Of a stretch of DNA of 64,000 bases, positions 8,294-62,674 are shown in pieces. The notes beneath the pieces are model-generated. The model searched no databases and had not been told where the DNA came from. It saw nothing but the letters and a program-made list of their open reading frames with translations. The position numbers and the translations under genes are program-made. This stretch comes from Escherichia coli O127:H6 str. E2348/69 (GTDB taxonomy: Bacteria > Pseudomonadota > Gammaproteobacteria > Enterobacterales > Enterobacteriaceae). The stretch lies in assembly GCF_000026545.1 (NCBI RefSeq), contig NC_011601.1; one strand, given 5' to 3'. Numbering within the stretch: the stretch's first letter is position 1; each line of letters starts with the position of its first letter.

Positions 8294-9849
8294 GCGTTTA
8301 GCCCCTTTTTCTGCAACTGAGTCTGCGCAACGGCGCTGGCCCATAGCGCCGCCTGTGCATTGCTGCTGGCAATGATGATGCCCGCATTTTGTAGTGCGCT
8401 TATCTGCTGACTGCGTATTTGCGGATCAGCTTCCGTTCCGCAAACGTGCGCAATCAGCAACGGAGCGTTATTCATGTCGATGTGTGAAAGTTGGTCCAGT
8501 AATTCGCTGGCAGGCGTCGTGGAAGCGCCATAACCAAGTACCAGGTCGAATAACACGACGGCAGTGTGTGAGTCGTTGAGTTCGTTGAGCAGACGTTGAT
8601 TGCGCAGAGTCGGGTCGATCATTGGATGCGGTTTGCCACGGGTGAAATCATCGTCGCCCATATCGATCAACGTGTGATCTTCGCTTTGCCAGATATTTGC
8701 CAGAGCACGATTACCCGCAACTGGCGTATTGGAAGCTGCGCTGAATCCCTTTTGTTGGCAGATAAGTTGCGCTTCGTAGCAGAAGGTTCCTCCGGCGAAA
8801 ACACCGCGTATCGCCTGGCGATGGGCTGGCAGACGCTGGCAGGCGTTTTGTAACATTGTGAGATCGTCGCAGGAAATCTCGGTCTCGACAGCCGGAATTG
8901 GCTGATCATTCAGTAACGCTACGGCGATATTTGCGGCGCTGGCAAGTGTGGTGGCCGCGGTGATATTGGGACGTGCCAGATCATGCGGATTCGCACCGAG
9001 GAAATTCACCACCACGGGTTTTCCACAAGCCTCGGCGCGCTCCAGAATAGTCTGGGCAACGATCGGTGAAGGCGGTTTTGAAATCAGCACAATCACGCGA
9101 GTTTCATCGTCTTGCGCCAGCGCATCTAAAGCGAAGAGCATCGATATTCCACCAATCTCTTCACTGAGATCATGTCCGCCTGTTCCCAACGCCTGAGAAA
9201 TACCCGCTCCGAGCTGGTCGATTCGGCAAGTCACTTCCTGTAGCCCGGTGCCTGACGCGCCAATAACACCAATTGCTCCGCGTTTCACCACATTAGCGAA
9301 GCCTAACGGAATGCCGTTAACAATGGCGGTTCCACAGTCAGGTCCCATTACGATGCGCTGACGTTCTCGGGCAAGCGTTTTGATAGATTTTTCCTGCCCG
9401 ATACTGACGTTATCGCTGAACATTATCACGTTCATTCCGAGGTTTAACGCTTTCATTGCTTCGGCGGCGGCGTAGTCTCCCGGTACAGAAATGAGTGCCA
9501 GGTTGGCCTCGGGTTCGGCTTCCAGTGCCATTTCCAGGCTGACCTTTTCCGGTGTTTTAATGCCACTATCCGTTTCATCATCGGGTTTGCTGGTCAGACG
9601 TTGCTGGGCCAGTACCAGTGCTTCATTGCAAATATCTTCTTCACCCATGACTGCAATCACTAAATCATTGGGACTGGCGTTGATTTCGTTACCCAGACCC
9701 GCATCGCGCAATTGTTCGAGATTATTGGGCGTTCCCATGACGACCGAGGCCTGTTGAATACCGGGCAACTTGCTGATTTGCGCGGAAATCTGCATCAGAG
9801 AAACTGAGTCCTGATAAAGATTACTGAAAACTTTATATTTAACTTTCAT
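8290..9849 (-). CDS. FdrA/YahF-like protein (succinyl-CoA synthetase alpha-like CoA-binding/ligase fold)
   Basis: 519-aa ORF with glycine-rich CoA-ligase-like motifs (GAIGVIGASGTGLQE, MGPDCGTAIVNGIPLGFAN); same size class as K-12 YahF/FdrA. Confidence 0.75.
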   Translation of the reverse strand: MKVKYKVFSNLYQDSVSLMQISAQISKLPGIQQASVVMGTPNNLEQLRDAGLGNEINASPNDLVIAVMGEEDICNEALVLAQQRLTSKPDDETDSGIKTPEKVSLEMALEAEPEANLALISVPGDYAAAEAMKALNLGMNVIMFSDNVSIGQEKSIKTLARERQRIVMGPDCGTAIVNGIPLGFANVVKRGAIGVIGASGTGLQEVTCRIDQLGAGISQALGTGGHDLSEEIGGISMLFALDALAQDDETRVIVLISKPPSPIVAQTILERAEACGKPVVVNFLGANPHDLARPNITAATTLASAANIAVALLNDQPIPAVETEISCDDLTMLQNACQRLPAHRQAIRGVFAGGTFCYEAQLICQQKGFSAASNTPVAGNRALANIWQSEDHTLIDMGDDDFTRGKPHPMIDPTLRNQRLLNELNDSHTAVVLFDLVLGYGASTTPASELLDQLSHIDMNNAPLLIAHVCGTEADPQIRSQQISALQNAGIIIASSNAQAALWASAVAQTQLQKKGLNA

Positions 9850-9943
9850 GCTGTTACGCCTGTTTCATTCCGCCCGATAGCAAAATTCGGGCAAAGCATC
9901 CCCGTGTAGCCCCATAAACGGGCTACGGGAGAAAAGGTTGAAA

Positions 9944-10804
9944 TCAATTCATGGTGTTCAGGGTTCGAAAGCCATGCAGCATTCCTGCAAGGCAATCTAC
10001 TCCTGACGTTGCGCCAAATTGCATGACCTGTTCTGCACAGGATGCGATTGTCATTGCCGATGTGCTCCCAACCAGTTGTGCGAGTAACTGGCAAATCGGT
10101 TCTGAAAAATGTCCCTGAAGCGCACGCTCCAGATAATGACGACTGATATCCGTGGTGTTGTGCGCATGTTGATCAATTGCCTGCTGCAACCGGTATTGAT
10201 GATCGGCAAGTGGTGCAGGGAGTTGCCATAACCAGAGCGCTGCCAGATAGCCCAACAAATAGTCATCTCCATCGGGCGTTAAGCCTTTACCAAAGCCGAT
10301 CAGTTGTGGCACCTGGCGTGCCAGCGCATCTGGATGTTCCATAATTGCTAATCCCTGGTGCGTGAGGCTATCCGGCAGGTGCAATGTGCTTTGAACGTTA
10401 TGTTCCAGACAAAATAAAAGCCGTTGCGATGCCATCGTTGGGTAGTGCTGGAAAACCAAAGGGAATGCCTCAAGTGTCAGCATTCTCCCCACAAATGGCG
10501 ACTGCCAGAGCGTTGCGTTATCGAGCGCCACACAAAATCGAGGTGTCCGCAGTAAGCCTGGGGTTAACTGAATGGGATCTGAATGGGCAATCTCTCTTCG
10601 CCAGTCCCAACATTCAGGTAGCCAGACTCTGGCAGCATCAGGGAGATTCAGATACGTTTGCGCACACAACAGAGTGATGAATGTTCCCGCGTCTGAATAC
10701 AGATTTACCGCATGTTTAAAAGCGCTATGCAGACGTAAATCTTGCGTTTCATTCTGCGGGAAAAGATATCCCAACGACGATGCGCAAAGCGTAACCTGTA
10801 CCAT
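9944..10804 (-). CDS. DUF2877 protein (YahE/YlbF-like)
   Basis: 286-aa ORF, same size as K-12 YahE; positioned immediately upstream of the FdrA-like gene as in the yahEFG and fdrA-ylbEF clusters. Confidence 0.55.
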   Translation of the reverse strand: MVQVTLCASSLGYLFPQNETQDLRLHSAFKHAVNLYSDAGTFITLLCAQTYLNLPDAARVWLPECWDWRREIAHSDPIQLTPGLLRTPRFCVALDNATLWQSPFVGRMLTLEAFPLVFQHYPTMASQRLLFCLEHNVQSTLHLPDSLTHQGLAIMEHPDALARQVPQLIGFGKGLTPDGDDYLLGYLAALWLWQLPAPLADHQYRLQQAIDQHAHNTTDISRHYLERALQGHFSEPICQLLAQLVGSTSAMTIASCAEQVMQFGATSGVDCLAGMLHGFRTLNTMN

Positions 10805-10809
10805 CGGCG

Positions 10810-11478
10810 TTAGCCTTCCAGACCTGCAATAATGGCTTTGGAATCAGTAACCCAACCGAAAATGGCACCTTGTGCTTTGATCATCTCGAGGGCGTATTTC
10901 TGGAATTCCGGGAAATAGGAGCCGACACAATCTTCCGGGATAATGCATTCATAGCCACGATCATTTGCTTCGCGCACGGTGGTGGTTACGCAAACTTCGG
11001 TTGTTACACCACAAACTATCAGCGTCTTGATACCGTGGTTTTGCAAAATCAGATGTAAGTCGGTTTGATAAAACGCGCCTTTGCCAGGCTTATCAATCAC
11101 CGGTTCGCCTGCCACCGGGTACAGTTCAGGAATGATGTCATGACCTGCTTCACCTCTGACCAGAATGCGTCCCATCGGTCCTGGTTCACCAATAAAGGTT
11201 TTTCCGCCGCGCGTCAGTTTGGCTGGCGGGCAGTCGCTTAAGTCTGCACGATGGCCTTCACGAATATGAATAACCATAATTCCTTTTTGACGTGCGGCTG
11301 CCAGCACCTCTGTACATGGTGCGATAGCCGTGCGTACCCGTGAAACATCATTGCCCAGTGCCTCACCGAAGCCCCCTGCTTCGACAAAGTCACGCTGCAT
11401 GTCGATCATGACCAGTGCAGTTGTGCGCGGATCAAAAGGTAATTCAAAGGGTTGAGCCTGAAAAATGGATTGCGTCAT
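10810..11478 (-). CDS. Isochorismatase-family cysteine hydrolase (N-carbamoylsarcosine amidase/RutB/BiuH-like)
   Basis: 222-aa ORF; N-terminal ALVMIDMQRDF (catalytic Asp region) and LIVCGVTTEVCV (catalytic Cys motif) typical of the family; AGGAGA Shine-Dalgarno; first gene of the operon. Confidence 0.8.
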   Translation of the reverse strand: MTQSIFQAQPFELPFDPRTTALVMIDMQRDFVEAGGFGEALGNDVSRVRTAIAPCTEVLAAARQKGIMVIHIREGHRADLSDCPPAKLTRGGKTFIGEPGPMGRILVRGEAGHDIIPELYPVAGEPVIDKPGKGAFYQTDLHLILQNHGIKTLIVCGVTTEVCVTTTVREANDRGYECIIPEDCVGSYFPEFQKYALEMIKAQGAIFGWVTDSKAIIAGLEG

Positions 11479-11638
11479 GGTAAATCTCCTGTCTGATGTT
11501 TAAACGATCCAGTTGTTCTGAGAACGAGTATTCAGGAGAAAAGCGGCACAAAACAGGAAAAAAGTTTGCCGCACAGCAACGAAATTTTTGCATTCAGCAG
11601 GTGGTGTGATGACGAATGTGAAGGGAGTCAAAGAGTGG

Positions 11639-11669
11639 CATACAGCAACAAATTTTTTGATGCTGTATG
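11639..11669. promoter_or_regulatory. Perfect 9-bp inverted repeat CATACAGCA-N13-TGCTGTATG in the operon upstream region
   Basis: Read directly; lies about 160 bp upstream of the first operon gene and downstream of ysgA; no U-tract on the transcribed strand, so more likely a protein-binding dyad than a terminator. Confidence 0.3.
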
Positions 11670-11734
11670 GTTTTGAGATTAAAAAAATCGTTGAAATTGT
11701 GTGAGCTTAATCATCAGATTTAGCGACTATGGCG

Positions 11735-12544
11735 TTACTTTTTAACACCATACTGTGTAAACCATTCCAACATTCGCTGCCAGCCGTCTTTCGCAGACTC
11801 GGCATGATAGCTCGGACGATAATCGGCGTTGAATGCATGCCCGGCATCCGGGTAGACGATAATCTCTGCTTTCGCATTAGCAGCCCGCAGCGCCTGGCGC
11901 ATAGTTTCAACGCTCTCCTGCGGAATGCTGTTATCCTGGCCGCCATATAAGCCGAGAACCGGCGCGTTAAGATCGGTTGCGATATCAACAGGTTGTTTCG
12001 GTGAATTCAGCGACTTATCGCCCGTCAGTTTGCCGTACCACGCCACTGCGGCTTTTAGCTGTGGATTATGCGCGGCATACAGCCAGGTGATACGTCCACC
12101 CCAGCAGAATCCGGTGATCATTAAACGATGAACATCGCCGCCGTTGCGGGAAGCCCAACTGGCGACATGATCGAGATCGGCCAGCACCTGCGAGTCAGGC
12201 ACTTTTGCTACCAGACCGCTAAGCAACGTGGGGATATCGGCAAAATCATTCGGATCGCCTTCGCGGAAGTAAAGTTCAGGTGCGATAGCCAGATACCCCT
12301 CCAGCGCCAGACGGCGACAAATGTCGCGGATATGTTCATGCACGCCAAAAATTTCCTGCACTACAATGACCACTGGCAGTGGGCCATCGCTTTGCTTTGG
12401 TCTGGCATGGTAAGCAGGCATGTTATCCCCTTGTGAAGGGATAGAGGTGAAGCCCGCCACAATCGCGTCGTCCGGAGTCTGAACGATGGTCGAAGCGAGA
12501 GGCGATGCAGCAGGTGCAAATCCAGATTGTTGTGTTGTTGCCAT
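11735..12544 (-). CDS. ysgA: Dienelactone hydrolase-family protein
   Basis: Translation from MATTQQSGFAPAASPL... matches my recollection of K-12 YsgA; GGAGAA Shine-Dalgarno before ATG at 12544; neighbour of udp as in K-12. Confidence 0.85.
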   Translation of the reverse strand: MATTQQSGFAPAASPLASTIVQTPDDAIVAGFTSIPSQGDNMPAYHARPKQSDGPLPVVIVVQEIFGVHEHIRDICRRLALEGYLAIAPELYFREGDPNDFADIPTLLSGLVAKVPDSQVLADLDHVASWASRNGGDVHRLMITGFCWGGRITWLYAAHNPQLKAAVAWYGKLTGDKSLNSPKQPVDIATDLNAPVLGLYGGQDNSIPQESVETMRQALRAANAKAEIIVYPDAGHAFNADYRPSYHAESAKDGWQRMLEWFTQYGVKK

Positions 12545-12805
12545 GGTATTCTCCGTACCCTTATAAAAATGTTGCGCAATGTTAACTATAGTCAGCATGC
12601 AACAAATCACATTGCCTGAATCGGCTCATCTTTTATGCAGTCCTGCAGAATGAAGAGTGATTTATGTGATTTGCATCACTTTTGGCGGGTAAATTTATGC
12701 AACGCATTTTCGTCATGGTGATGAGTATCACGAAAAAATGTTAAACCCTTCGGTAAAGTGTCTTTTTGCTTCTTCTGACTAAACCGATTCACAGAGGAGT
12801 TGTAT

Positions 12806-40174: not shown

Positions 40175-40206
40175 AAAGCCCGTGAATATTCACGGGCTTT
40201 TTTTAT
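40175..40206 (+). terminator. dsbA rho-independent terminator
   Basis: AGCCCGTG-AATATT-CACGGGCT followed by TTTTTTT. Confidence 0.8.
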
Positions 40207-47149: not shown

Positions 47150-47392
47150 ATAGAGCGAGGACGCTAACAGGAACAATGACTCAGGATGAGGGTCAGGAGC
47201 GCCAGGAGGCGAAGACAGAGGATTGTCAGGAAGATAAACGTCCGGAGACGTAATTAAATGGAAATGGAATCAACACGGATTGTTCCGGCTAATGGAAAAA
47301 CAGGGTGTGTTGGCGGCCTGCAAGGATTGTAAGACCCGTTAAGGGTTATGAGTCAGGAAAAAAGGCGACAGAGTAATCTGTCGCCTTTTTTC
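47150..47392 (+). ncRNA. csrC: CsrC, CsrA-sequestering small RNA
   Basis: Begins ATAGAGCGAGGACGCTAACAGG; multiple GGA-containing motifs (CAGGATG, CAGGAGC, CAGGAGG, CAGGAAG, ACGGA, AAGGA); terminator GGCGACAG-AGTAAT-CTGTCGCC plus T-run; conserved engB-yihI location. Confidence 0.8.
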
Positions 47393-56236: not shown

Positions 56237-56254
56237 TTTCGTTTTTTAGTCATA

Positions 56255-56286
56255 AAAAACCTGCCAGCGATGGCAGGTTTTTTTTG
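56255..56286. terminator. Bidirectional rho-independent terminator between typA and the convergent DeoR-type regulator gene
   Basis: AAAAAA-CCTGCCA-GCGA-TGGCAGG-TTTTTTTT. Confidence 0.8.
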
Positions 56287-56342
56287 GCTTATGGAAAACA
56301 AAATCCGCTGAAATTCCCAGCGGATTTTCCGAAGTTTCAATT

Positions 56343-62576: not shown

Positions 62577-62610
62577 TTTAATGCGCATCGGTTTAAGCCG
62601 ATGCGCATTA
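62577..62610. other. 14-bp perfect inverted repeat TTAATGCGCATCGG-(6)-CCGATGCGCATTAA between the two transporter genes
   Basis: Read directly; no T-run follows, so not a canonical intrinsic terminator. Confidence 0.5.
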
Positions 62611-62674
62611 ATTCAAACTGCCCACGTTTAGTGGTTCGTATCCCAGATTTCTCGCCTACCAGGAGAGGAAAATT

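What the first reader, a model, noticed from the sequence alone, without database searches (positions are those of the whole stretch)
11479..11734. Candidate control region of the carbamoyl-type operon with a perfect 9-bp dyad
The 256-bp region between ysgA and the first operon gene contains CATACAGCA-N13-TGCTGTATG (11639-11669) and a smaller GTTCT-G-AGAAC palindrome (about 11503-11513). The dyad is not followed by a U-tract in either orientation, so it is unlikely to be the ysgA terminator. It is a plausible operator for the nearby LysR or RpiR regulator.
Basis: seen in the sequence. Interest (0 to 1): 0.3.

Follow-up and report, generated by a model that had tools for sequence, protein, structure and literature searches.

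The report
LysR-type operator upstream of carbamoyl operon
The perfect 9-bp dyad is real, and its inner 19-23 bp is a conserved binding box, most likely for the LysR-type regulator encoded at the end of the same gene island; this makes it an ordinary but previously undescribed operator in the promoter of an uncharacterised nitrogen-compound operon.

Summary
The window is E. coli E2348/69. The 256-bp spacer is entirely island DNA (the ExPEC "metE..ysgA/tkt1" island). It lies between the ysgA stop and the first gene of a minus-strand operon: BiuH-like cysteine hydrolase, DUF2877, FdrA, DUF1116, carbamate kinase and further genes, ending in a LysR gene.

The dyad CATACAGCA-N13-TGCTGTATG is at 11639-11669 as stated. 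In about 20 Enterobacterales homologues of the operon only its inner part, GCATCAA-N5-TTGYTGC, is conserved in sequence. The outer arms are not conserved. A second, related box lies 69-71 bp downstream (79-81 bp in a few genera), at about -65 from a conserved -10 (AATACT). It is followed by an AAAC-N9-GTTT element at about -39, which is the classic layout of a LysR-type promoter. A CRP-like site (TTTGA-N6-TCACA) lies between the two boxes.

The core TCAAAAAATTTG matches 12/12 the validated operator core of PunR, the closest characterised relative of the island's LysR. More distant taxa, where the LysR gene is adjacent or divergent, have ATC-N9-GAT boxes.

Verdict: the dyad is a distal LysR-type operator in a compound LysR + CRP promoter. 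It is not a terminator and not an RpiR site. No binding assay exists. This is a new member of a known kind, of modest interest.

The parts
11639..11669 (.).
   Evidence: (I3)
11643..11665 (-). Conserved 23-bp distal box CAGCATCAAAAAATTTGTTGCTG. Its core TCAAAAAATTTG (11649-11660) equals the PunR-type core TCAAwAwwwTTG.
   Evidence: Top hit in the 64-kb window (25.8 bits) with a matrix built only from non-E. coli sites. Alignment A2 has invariant TTG and near-invariant CATCAA. PunR consensus from PMC8376909. It is the only TCAAWWWWWTTG in the window.
11574..11596 (-). Proximal box TGAATGCAAAAATTTCGTTGCTG (RBS-like), centre 11585, about -65
   Evidence: Second-best matrix hit in the window (17.9 bits). 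Direct repeat D1. Conserved block TGCAAAAwwTTCGTTGC in A2.
11551..11567 (-). AAAC-N9-GTTT element (ABS-like), centre about -39, overlapping the -35 position
   Evidence: Conserved AAAYnnTTTnnCTGT block in all Enterobacterales homologues
11617..11632 (.). CRP-like site TTTGActccctTCACA (9/10 of TGTGA-N6-TCACA), centre about -104.5, between the two boxes
   Evidence: TCACA is invariant in A2. The site shifts by +10 bp together with the distal box in the 80-bp-spacing genera.
11700..11715 (.). Second CRP-like site GATGAttaagcTCACA (8/10), centre about -187.5; its TCACA half is invariant
   Evidence: Shewanella L023 has a perfect CRP site at the equivalent position.
11674..11696 (-). Weak third copy or half-box TTTCAACGATTTTTTTAATCTCA, 31 bp upstream of the distal centre (tentative)
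   Evidence: I4, I6. Matrix hits 32 bp upstream of the distal box in L014, L025 and L030.
11527..11532 (-). Predicted sigma-70 -10 hexamer AATACT, with no recognisable -35. The predicted start is about 11519-11520, in a conserved CAG.
   Evidence: [AT]ATACT is conserved 47-70 nt before the ATG in 20/20 Enterobacterales homologues; ATACT is invariant in A2. The start position is inferred, not mapped.
11515..11525 (.).
11535..11572 (-). Hairpin GCGGCAAAC...GUU..UGCCGC plus UUUUCUCC tail. It is the most terminator-like element for ysgA read-through and overlaps the ABS/-35 region.
   Evidence: -10.4 kcal/mol, z = -2.3. One search flagged a smaller, different stem in this area (11568-11580), not this hairpin. 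Not conserved in other genera.
10810..11478 (-). First operon gene: BiuH-like isochorismatase-family cysteine hydrolase. Shine-Dalgarno AGGAG at 11486-11490.
1724..2629 (-). Island LysR-type regulator (PunR/AllS-like), last gene of the module; proposed binder of the boxes
   Evidence: PunR 287 bits, AllS 215 bits, both below the equivalog cut-offs; 34% identity to PunR; recognition helix VPSAISYT vs VPSAVSYT
11735..12544 (-). ysgA. The island junction is at about 11747, inside its last codons, so the whole spacer is island DNA.
   Evidence: searches compared

Best explanation
The dyad is the promoter-distal operator of the island's own PunR/AllS-like LysR-type regulator (gene at 1724-2629). 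It forms part of a compound, activator-dependent sigma-70 promoter for the cysteine hydrolase / DUF2877 / FdrA / DUF1116 / carbamate kinase operon.

Shown by sequence comparison. Relative to a conserved -10 (AATACT, 11527-11532) the region holds:
- a proximal box at about -65 and an AAAC-N9-GTTT element at about -39, the canonical LysR RBS/ABS layout;
- a CRP-like site at about -104.5;
- a second CRP-like half-site at about -187.5.

Inferred. The regulator binds the symmetric distal box with the highest affinity. A second regulator unit binds the proximal RBS/ABS. The two are held on a fixed relative helical face: the spacing is 69-71, 79-81 or 100-103 bp in different lineages. CRP bending between them helps cooperative binding or looping that sets basal repression and/or inducer-dependent activation. 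The inducer is unknown; it is probably a small N-rich carbamoyl compound taken up by the NCS1 permease.

The perfect 9-bp arms are an E. coli-lineage extension of the conserved core. They are not themselves the conserved unit.
For: (1) Sequence conservation rather than structure conservation. In alignment A2 (18 upstream regions from E. coli, Edwardsiella, Citrobacter, Buttiauxella, Rahnella, Serratia and others) CATCAA and TTG of the dyad core are invariant or near-invariant, while the flanks diverge. On the E. coli hairpin, inner pairs are kept in 17/18 sequences without change. The six outer pairs are paired in only 7-9 of 18.

(2) A matrix built only from non-E. coli distal sites ranks the dyad first in the 64-kb window (25.8 bits) and the proximal box second (17.9). 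Hits of 11 bits or more are 47-fold enriched in the 400 nt upstream of the gene across 80 loci; 16 of the hits are the training sites themselves.

(3) Geometry. The conserved [AT]ATACT is present in 20/20 loci. The proximal box lies about -65 and the AAAC-N9-GTTT element about -39.

(4) Distal-to-proximal spacing falls in classes that differ by whole helical turns.

(5) By NCBIfam the regulator is closest to PunR. PunR's operator, validated by ChIP-exo, fluorescence polarisation and EMSA, has the consensus TsttwTCAAwAwwwTTGaaGGCA (PMC8376909). The dyad core TCAAAAAATTTG matches the central 12/12. The HTH regions are similar.

(6) The orthologous LysR gene travels with the operon. It is downstream in enterics and on the plasmid copy, immediately upstream in Vibrionaceae, Shewanella and Halomonas (two ATC-N9-GAT boxes), and divergent in Crenobacter, Laribacter and Pseudovibrio (one box in the divergent spacer).

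(7) Upstream neighbours differ (ysgA, yigL-like, dbpA, ABC ATPase, glycosyltransferase), so the roughly 250-bp control region belongs to the operon.

(8) There is no Rfam family and only one copy per genome.
Against: - No binding, footprint or transcript-start data exist; -10, the start and all positions are predictions.
- The distal box at about -134 is outside the canonical LysR position, so its role (auxiliary, looping or repression) is conjecture.
- In the 68%-identical plasmid copy the distal core is degenerate by the matrix (2.0 bits), yet a different perfect 7-bp dyad (ATAAACA-N12-TGTTTAT) sits at the same place. This fits symmetry selection, a shifted specificity or chance, and is unexplained.
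- In E. coli the right half is GTT, not GAT (T-N11-T rather than T-N11-A).
- No box was found upstream of the LysR gene itself.
- Helical phasing rests on only three spacing classes.
- The TCACA boxes could belong to the regulator's extended site rather than to CRP.
- The K-12 allD-fdrA spacer, controlled by the paralogue AllS, has no such core.
Confidence: 0.7

Rival explanations
1. The dyad is an RNA hairpin at the 3' end of ysgA: a U-tract-poor terminator or a 3'-end stabiliser. The island insertion removed the K-12 metE/ysgA bidirectional terminator, so a replacement would be needed.
For: It forms a stable hairpin (-14.3 kcal/mol, z = -6.2) 66-96 nt after the ysgA stop. K-12's terminator AAACCGGGTGGTAATACCACCCGGTCTTTT is absent here because the junction lies inside ysgA's last codons. 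Outer arms are complementary, with different sequences, in some lineages such as Buttiauxella L010, Rahnella L025/L028 and the plasmid copy.
Against: There is no U-tract and the terminator scan does not call it. The core is conserved as sequence whatever gene lies upstream. Outer pairs are paired in only about 44% of sequences, near chance. The plasmid hairpin is weak (-4.8 kcal/mol, z = 0.15). Spacing to the proximal box changes in units of one helical turn, which is a DNA-protein property. A better terminator-like hairpin with a UUUUCU tail exists at 11535-11572.
Confidence: 0.1
2. The box is bound by a different protein: IHF (the core resembles WATCAANNNNTTR), the host's own PunR, or another A/T-core-recognising factor. 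The island LysR would then act only at the proximal site or not at all.
For: ATCAAAAAATT fits ATCAANNNNTT of the IHF consensus (from my own knowledge). The core is identical to the PunR core. The distal position (-134) between or next to CRP-like sites is typical of architectural proteins.
Against: The W and R positions of the IHF consensus are not met, and Edwardsiella and Serratia variants break ATCAA or TT. The site is two-fold symmetric (GCA-N13-TGC; ATC-N9-GAT in distant taxa), unlike asymmetric IHF sites. The validated PunR operator scores only 11.6 bits with the box matrix against 25.8 for the dyad, and 2/11 flank positions match the PunR consensus. The same box type occurs at the canonical LysR position and in divergent LysR spacers.
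Confidence: 0.12
3. The perfect dyad has no function of its own. It is a relic of a tandem duplication of the RBS unit (30-nt repeat D1) plus chance symmetry in A/T-rich DNA.
For: A 9-bp perfect inverted repeat appears in about 3% of composition-matched 256-bp sequences. The outer arms are lineage-specific. The distal core is degenerate in the plasmid copy.
Against: The distal box is retained at a fixed, phase-preserving distance in about 19 Enterobacterales and in Photobacterium, Motilimonas, Shewanella and Halomonas, although the surrounding spacer has diverged. It is the best-scoring copy of the motif in E. coli.
Confidence: 0.05

Closest known systems
PunR (YdhB) operator in the punR-punC spacer of E. 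coli K-12 (PMC8376909)
   Same: Both are 23-bp imperfect palindromes with an identical 12-nt core pattern TCAAwAwwwTTG (K-12: TTCAAAAATTTTG). The regulator here is PunR's closest relative by NCBIfam (287 bits) and has a near-identical recognition helix. Both control uptake or catabolism of N-rich heterocycle-related compounds.
   Different: The flanks differ (CAGCA...TGCTG vs TsttW...aaGGCA; 2/11 positions match). The regulator is only 34% identical and scores below PunR's equivalog cut-off. The gene is not divergent from its target. There are two (perhaps three) boxes plus CRP-like sites instead of one box. Binding is untested here.
Canonical LysR-type promoter (RBS at about -65 with T-N11-A dyad, ABS near -35; e.g. 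CbnR, BenM, OccR; from established knowledge)
   Same: The proximal box at about -65 and the AAAC-N9-GTTT element at about -39 reproduce this geometry. There is no -35 hexamer, as in activator-dependent promoters. Relatives have textbook ATC-N9-GAT boxes.
   Different: The E. coli version reads ATC-N9-GTT. The regulator gene lies at the far end of the operon, co-directional with it.
allFGHK (fdrA-ylbE-ylbF-ybcF) operon of K-12, activated by the LysR-type AllS and by ArcA (PMC12535856; PMC11326118)
   Same: It has a paralogous enzyme set (FdrA, DUF1116, DUF2877, carbamate kinase) under a paralogous LysR-type activator. AllS is the second-best NCBIfam hit (215 bits).
   Different: The K-12 allD-fdrA spacer has no TCAA-N5-TTG core. 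This operon adds a BiuH-like hydrolase, an AtzF C-terminal-domain protein and an NCS1 permease. Its substrate is unknown.
Two-site looping by LysR-type NAC at gdhA, and CRP-assisted multi-activator promoters (from my own knowledge, not tested here)
   Same: Two like sites on a fixed helical face, with a bend-inducing CRP-like site between them.
   Different: Looping here is purely inferred from the spacing classes.

Membership tests
LysR-type (LTTR) operator | Interrupted dyad containing T-N11-A (e.g. ATC-N9-GAT) | tested here: inconclusive
   The E. coli dyad core reads ATC-N9-GTT (T-N11-T, one arm off) within GCA-N13-TGC symmetry. Edwardsiella, Photobacterium, Motilimonas, Shewanella and Halomonas homologues have exact ATC-N9-GAT or TCAA-N5-TTGA.
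LysR-type (LTTR) operator | RBS centred near -65 with an ABS near -35 of the regulated promoter | tested here: not met
   The dyad itself is centred at about -134 from the predicted start. The criterion is met by the proximal box (about -65) plus AAAC-N9-GTTT (about -39). Positions depend on a predicted -10.
LysR-type (LTTR) operator | A cognate LTTR gene genetically linked to the target across genomes | tested here: met
   An orthologous LysR gene is in the E. coli island and the plasmid copy, immediately upstream in 11 marine gamma-proteobacterial and other loci, and divergent in 5 loci.
LysR-type (LTTR) operator | Direct, sequence-specific binding by the regulator | not testable with these tools
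   Needs EMSA, footprinting or ChIP.
PunR-type box | 23-bp imperfect palindrome TsttwTCAAwAwwwTTGaaGGCA | tested here: inconclusive
   The core matches 12/12 but the flanks only 2/11. The validated K-12 PunR site scores 11.6 bits with the box matrix against 25.8 for the dyad. It is the same operator family but not PunR's own site.
Intrinsic (Rho-independent) terminator | G+C-rich stem-loop immediately followed by a U-tract | tested here: not met
   A stem is present, but the tails are CCACUCUUUG (minus strand) and GUUUUGAG (plus strand), and the scan does not call it.
Conserved RNA structure / known RNA family | Base pairs maintained by compensatory change; match to an Rfam model | tested here: not met
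   Inner pairs never vary. Outer pairs are paired in 7-9 of 18 sequences. Paired cells are 62% against 59% in shuffles. No Rfam hit is better than E = 0.05, and none is at the dyad.
CRP site (neighbouring elements 11617-11632 and 11700-11715) | TGTGA-N6-TCACA at a helical-phase-compatible distance upstream of the promoter | tested here: inconclusive
   The matches are 9/10 and 8/10. TCACA is invariant in A2. 11617-11632 is one of only three sites in the window with one mismatch or fewer; one of the other two lies in the ysgA-udp spacer, which I take from my own knowledge to be the udp promoter's CRP site. Perfect CRP sites occur in L019, L023 and L040. Binding is untested.
IHF site | WATCAANNNNTTR with an A/T-rich 5' tract; asymmetric | tested here: not met
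   cATCAAAAAATTt fails the W and R positions. The site is symmetric. Variants in other genera break the pattern.
Dispersed repeat (REP/BIME/ERIC) | Many copies per genome | tested here: not met
   The median is one place per genome, always at this locus (or its plasmid paralogue).

The most novel reading that the evidence does not exclude
The two PunR-type boxes are kept at 70 + about 10n bp on either side of a CRP site, with a possible third half-box 31 bp further upstream. Together they may assemble a looped LTTR-CRP-LTTR nucleoprotein complex. This would be a conserved, mobile roughly 250-bp 'regulatory cassette' that travels with an uncharacterised, ATP-yielding carbamoyl-compound pathway (BiuH-like hydrolase, OXTCase-like FdrA/DUF1116/DUF2877 and carbamate kinase). 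That pathway is present in E. coli B (NEBExpress), Nissle 1917, ST131 and APEC plasmids. The operator motif would give a handle for finding the pathway's inducer and substrate.
Probability: 0.25. Interest if true: 0.5.

Novelty: new member of a known kind. Interest (0 to 1): 0.33.

Why it matters
The operon is carried by about 28% of complete E. coli genomes, including B2 ExPEC, Nissle 1917, ST131 and E. coli B laboratory derivatives such as NEBExpress. A second copy sits on APEC-type conjugative plasmids. Its first enzyme is 70-90% identical from E. coli to Burkholderia, Vibrio and Mycobacterium. The pathway has nevertheless only been discussed in silico (PMC12928451).

This analysis defines the promoter, the two regulator boxes and the likely CRP input. 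That gives concrete, cheap experiments (EMSA oligonucleotides, reporter fusions, inducer screens) for finding what the pathway degrades and when it is expressed. As a regulatory element it is conventional.

Tried and rejected
- Terminator reading: no U-tract, structure not conserved.
- Known RNA family: none in Rfam.
- RpiR as regulator: the gene (679-1524) belongs to the PTS/tkt1 half of the island and is absent from the plasmid copy and from other genera that keep the boxes.
- Distal box serving a conserved divergent gene: the upstream neighbours are unrelated housekeeping genes, mostly co-directional.
- Autoregulatory box in front of the LysR gene: none scoring 10 bits or more; only a -10-like TATACT and a 10-bp hairpin there.
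- Same motif in the K-12 AllS-controlled allD-fdrA spacer: absent.
- IHF, Lrp (flanks CAGCA/TGCTG fit but the spacing is wrong), FNR, Nac, sigma-54, PurR and CytR resemblances considered by eye: none fits in spacing or conservation (inference, no tool).
- Dispersed repeat: single copy per genome.
- Search of plasmids for intermediate variants of the control region: only near-identical copies found.
- The promoter scan found no minus-strand sigma-70 promoter because there is no -35; the -10 call rests on conservation only.

Full report
**Where the finding sits**

The window is E. coli E2348/69 (100% match). The 256-bp spacer 11479-11734 lies on the minus strand between the ysgA stop (11735-11737) and the ATG (11478-11476) of a cysteine hydrolase. 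That gene opens an eight-gene module: cysteine hydrolase, DUF2877/AllH-like, FdrA, DUF1116/YlbE, carbamate kinase, an allophanate-hydrolase C-terminal-domain protein, an NCS1 'cytosine' permease and a LysR-type regulator. In this strain the DUF1116 gene is split by ISEc13.

K-12 lacks the module. There metE and ysgA are 39 bp apart and share a bidirectional terminator. The junction is at about 11747, inside ysgA's last codons, so the whole spacer is island DNA. About 1,499 of 5,426 complete E. coli genomes carry the spacer at 99% identity or more. About 120 plasmid records carry a 68%-identical copy of the whole LysR + operon module. The island is the ExPEC 'GR 29 metE..ysgA / tkt1' island, which has been discussed only in silico (PMC12928451).

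**Check of the observation**

CATACAGCA-N13-TGCTGTATG is at 11639-11669 and is unique in the window. It extends to 14-nt arms with one mismatch and a 3-nt loop. As RNA it folds at -14.3 kcal/mol, z = -6.2. A perfect 9-bp inverted repeat with a short spacer turns up in about 3% of composition-matched 256-bp sequences, so it is suggestive but not decisive.

The small palindrome is at 11515-11525, not about 11503-11513. It is not conserved. The tails after the dyad are CCACTCTTTG (minus strand) and GTTTTG (plus strand). Neither is called a terminator.

**Comparative evidence**

A scan of one genome per species returned 80 loci encoding a 66-98%-identical hydrolase, mostly followed by the same DUF2877-fdrA-DUF1116-arcC genes. 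About 20 Enterobacterales upstream regions (E. coli, Edwardsiella, Citrobacter, Buttiauxella, Rahnella, Serratia, Budvicia and others) were anchored on an invariant [AT]ATACT 47-70 nt before the ATG. They share the same blocks (alignment A2 of 18 of them):

- a proximal block tGCAAAAwwTTCGTTGCTG-N6-AAAYnnTTTnnCTGT;
- a TtTGA-N6-TCACA block;
- a distal block GCATCAAwwwwwTTGYTGC;
- a further TCACA plus T-run.

The outer arms CATA/TATG are not conserved.

On the E. coli hairpin drawn over A2, the inner pairs (CAA/TTG, GC/GC) are unchanged in 12-17 of 18 sequences. The six outer pairs are paired in only 7-9 of 18. Overall pairing (62%) barely exceeds the shuffles (59%). The plasmid copy's hairpin is weak (-4.8 kcal/mol, z = 0.15). 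There is no Rfam match. This is the signature of a sequence-specific protein site, not of an RNA structure.

**Specificity of the motif**

A 23-nt matrix made only from the 16 non-E. coli distal sites ranks the E. coli dyad first in the 64-kb window (25.8 bits) and the proximal box 11574-11596 second (17.9 bits). The next hit scores 13.4. Hits of 11 bits or more are 47-fold enriched in the 400 nt upstream of the hydrolase gene across 80 loci. Part of that is circular, because 16 hits are the training sites. The proximal boxes were not used for training and are found in nearly every enteric locus. TCAAWWWWWTTG occurs once in the window, inside the dyad.

**Geometry**

Placing the start 7-8 nt after AATACT (11527-11532) puts it at about 11519-11520, in a conserved CAG. 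This start is inferred. On that basis:

| Element | Window coordinates | Centre relative to predicted start |
|---|---|---|
| AAAC-N9-GTTT element | 11551-11567 | about -39 |
| Proximal box | 11574-11596 | about -65 |
| CRP-like site 1 | 11617-11632 | about -104.5 |
| Distal box (the dyad) | 11643-11665 | about -134 |
| CRP-like site 2 | 11700-11715 | about -187.5 |

The -65/-39 pair with no -35 hexamer is the textbook LysR-type RBS/ABS layout (established knowledge).

Distal-to-proximal centre distances are 69-71 bp in most enterics. They are 79-81 bp in Buttiauxella, the '18061' genome and Limnobaculum, and 100-103 bp in Photobacterium, Motilimonas, Shewanella and Halomonas. These classes differ by whole helical turns. 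In the 80-bp class the CRP-like site moves with the distal box. This argues for a face-of-the-helix constraint between bound proteins, though it rests on only three classes.

**Who binds**

By NCBIfam the island regulator is closest to PunR (287 bits, cut-off 345) and then AllS (215 bits). It is 34% identical to K-12 PunR and has a very similar recognition helix, VPSAISYTIKK vs VPSAVSYTVRQ. PunR's operator was validated by ChIP-exo, fluorescence polarisation and EMSA. Its consensus is TsttwTCAAwAwwwTTGaaGGCA, and the K-12 site is tggtTTCAAAAATTTTGcaggca (PMC8376909). The dyad core TCAAAAAATTTG matches the central 12/12.

The flanks differ, and the PunR site scores only 11.6 bits with the box matrix. 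The box is therefore of the PunR type but has its own specificity.

The orthologous LysR gene accompanies the operon in three arrangements:

- at the distal end in enterics and on the plasmid;
- immediately upstream in Vibrionaceae, Shewanella, Halomonas and Thorsellia, mostly with two boxes, several of them exact ATC-N9-GAT;
- divergent in Crenobacter, Laribacter, Craterilacuibacter and Pseudovibrio, with one box in the divergent spacer, the classic autoregulatory layout.

RpiR (679-1524) belongs to the island's PTS/tkt1 half. It is absent from the plasmid copy and from the other genera. Upstream neighbours of the operon are unrelated genes, so the control region belongs to the operon.

**CRP**

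TTTGActccctTCACA (11617-11632) is one of only three sites in the window within one mismatch of TGTGA-N6-TCACA. One of the other two lies in the ysgA-udp spacer; from my own knowledge I take it to be the udp promoter's CRP site. TCACA is invariant in A2. Perfect CRP sites occur in the Avibacterium, Shewanella and Thorsellia spacers. Catabolite control is therefore likely but untested. The TCACA boxes could alternatively belong to the regulator's extended footprint.

**Most likely mechanism**

The dyad is a distal, high-symmetry operator of the island's LysR-type regulator. The proximal RBS/ABS is the activation site. The two are kept in phase around a CRP-induced bend, probably for cooperative binding or looping (inference).

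Confidence:
- that it is a functional protein-binding regulatory site: about 0.85;
- that the binder is the island's LysR-type regulator: about 0.7;
- the looping role is speculative.

**Caveats**

- There are no binding or transcript-start data.
- The E. coli right arm reads GTT, not GAT.
- The distal core is degenerate in the plasmid copy (2.0 bits), although a different perfect 7-bp dyad (ATAAACA-N12-TGTTTAT) occupies the same place. The plasmid regulator is 91% identical, with two substitutions in the recognition helix. This remains unexplained.
- No box precedes the LysR gene.
- The paralogous K-12 allD-fdrA spacer, controlled by AllS (PMC12535856), lacks the core.

**Rivals**

- ysgA 3' hairpin or terminator: about 0.1.
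- Another protein such as IHF or host PunR: about 0.12.
- Functionless relic or chance: about 0.05.

**Novelty and interest**

This is an undescribed operator of an uncharacterised LysR-type regulator, so it is a new member of a well-known kind. Interest is modest (0.33). Its main value is as an entry point to a widespread but unstudied carbamoyl-compound pathway.

Noticed in passing
window 6980-8344 / 5668-7041 (L001 3969-6594): The DUF1116/YlbE gene of the operon is interrupted by an ISEc13 transposase in E2348/69. The operon is probably non-functional in this strain although its control region is intact.
   Followed up: partly
window 2655-2678 and about 2690-2700 (minus strand): A perfect 10-bp hairpin GGCTGAATCT-ggag-AGATTCAGCC lies in the 77-bp gap between the permease and the LysR gene, preceded by a TATACTcag -10-like element. 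This may be a separate LysR promoter or an attenuator. No regulator box is present there.
   Followed up: partly
window 11535-11572 (minus strand): The hairpin GCGGCAAAC...UGCCGC followed by UUUUCUCC (-10.4 kcal/mol) overlaps the ABS/-35 region. It is the most terminator-like element for ysgA read-through. It is specific to E. coli.
   Followed up: partly
window about 11738-11750 vs L002 5355-5385: The island junction falls inside the last codons of ysgA. The YsgA C-terminus therefore differs from K-12 (...QYGVKK* vs ...QYGGKKSL*), and the K-12 metE/ysgA bidirectional terminator is lost.
   Followed up: partly
L003 (pGDE043-2) 1790-10230; 82 PLSDB plasmids: A second copy of the LysR + operon module sits on conjugative plasmids (78 E. 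coli, 4 Klebsiella), many of them from poultry or APEC isolates. Proteins are 91-96% identical but the promoter is only 68% identical.
   Followed up: partly
window 10810-11478; loci L004-L083: The BiuH-like cysteine hydrolase is unusually conserved: 80-91% identical from E. coli to Vibrio, Burkholderia and Dyella, and about 70% to Mycobacterium and Chloroflexi. It nearly always sits with FdrA/DUF1116/DUF2877 and carbamate kinase. This suggests an ATP-yielding phosphorolysis of a biuret/allophanate-like carbamoyl compound (speculation).
   Followed up: no
window 11674-11696: A weak third copy or half-box (CAACGATTTTTTTAAT) lies 31 bp upstream of the distal box. Equivalent hits occur 32 bp upstream in L014, L025 and L030. 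It might form a mirror-image RBS/ABS pair with the distal box.
   Followed up: partly
window 12665-12680: A near-perfect CRP site TGTGATTTGCATCACT lies in the ysgA-udp spacer. It was picked up by the same scan, and I take it to be the known CRP/CytR-controlled udp promoter.
   Followed up: no
window 7020-7050, 40175-40200, 47357-47392, 56254-56328, 62578-62611: Other long perfect inverted repeats (11-17 bp arms) occur elsewhere in the window. They are probably terminators or IS ends and were not examined.
   Followed up: no
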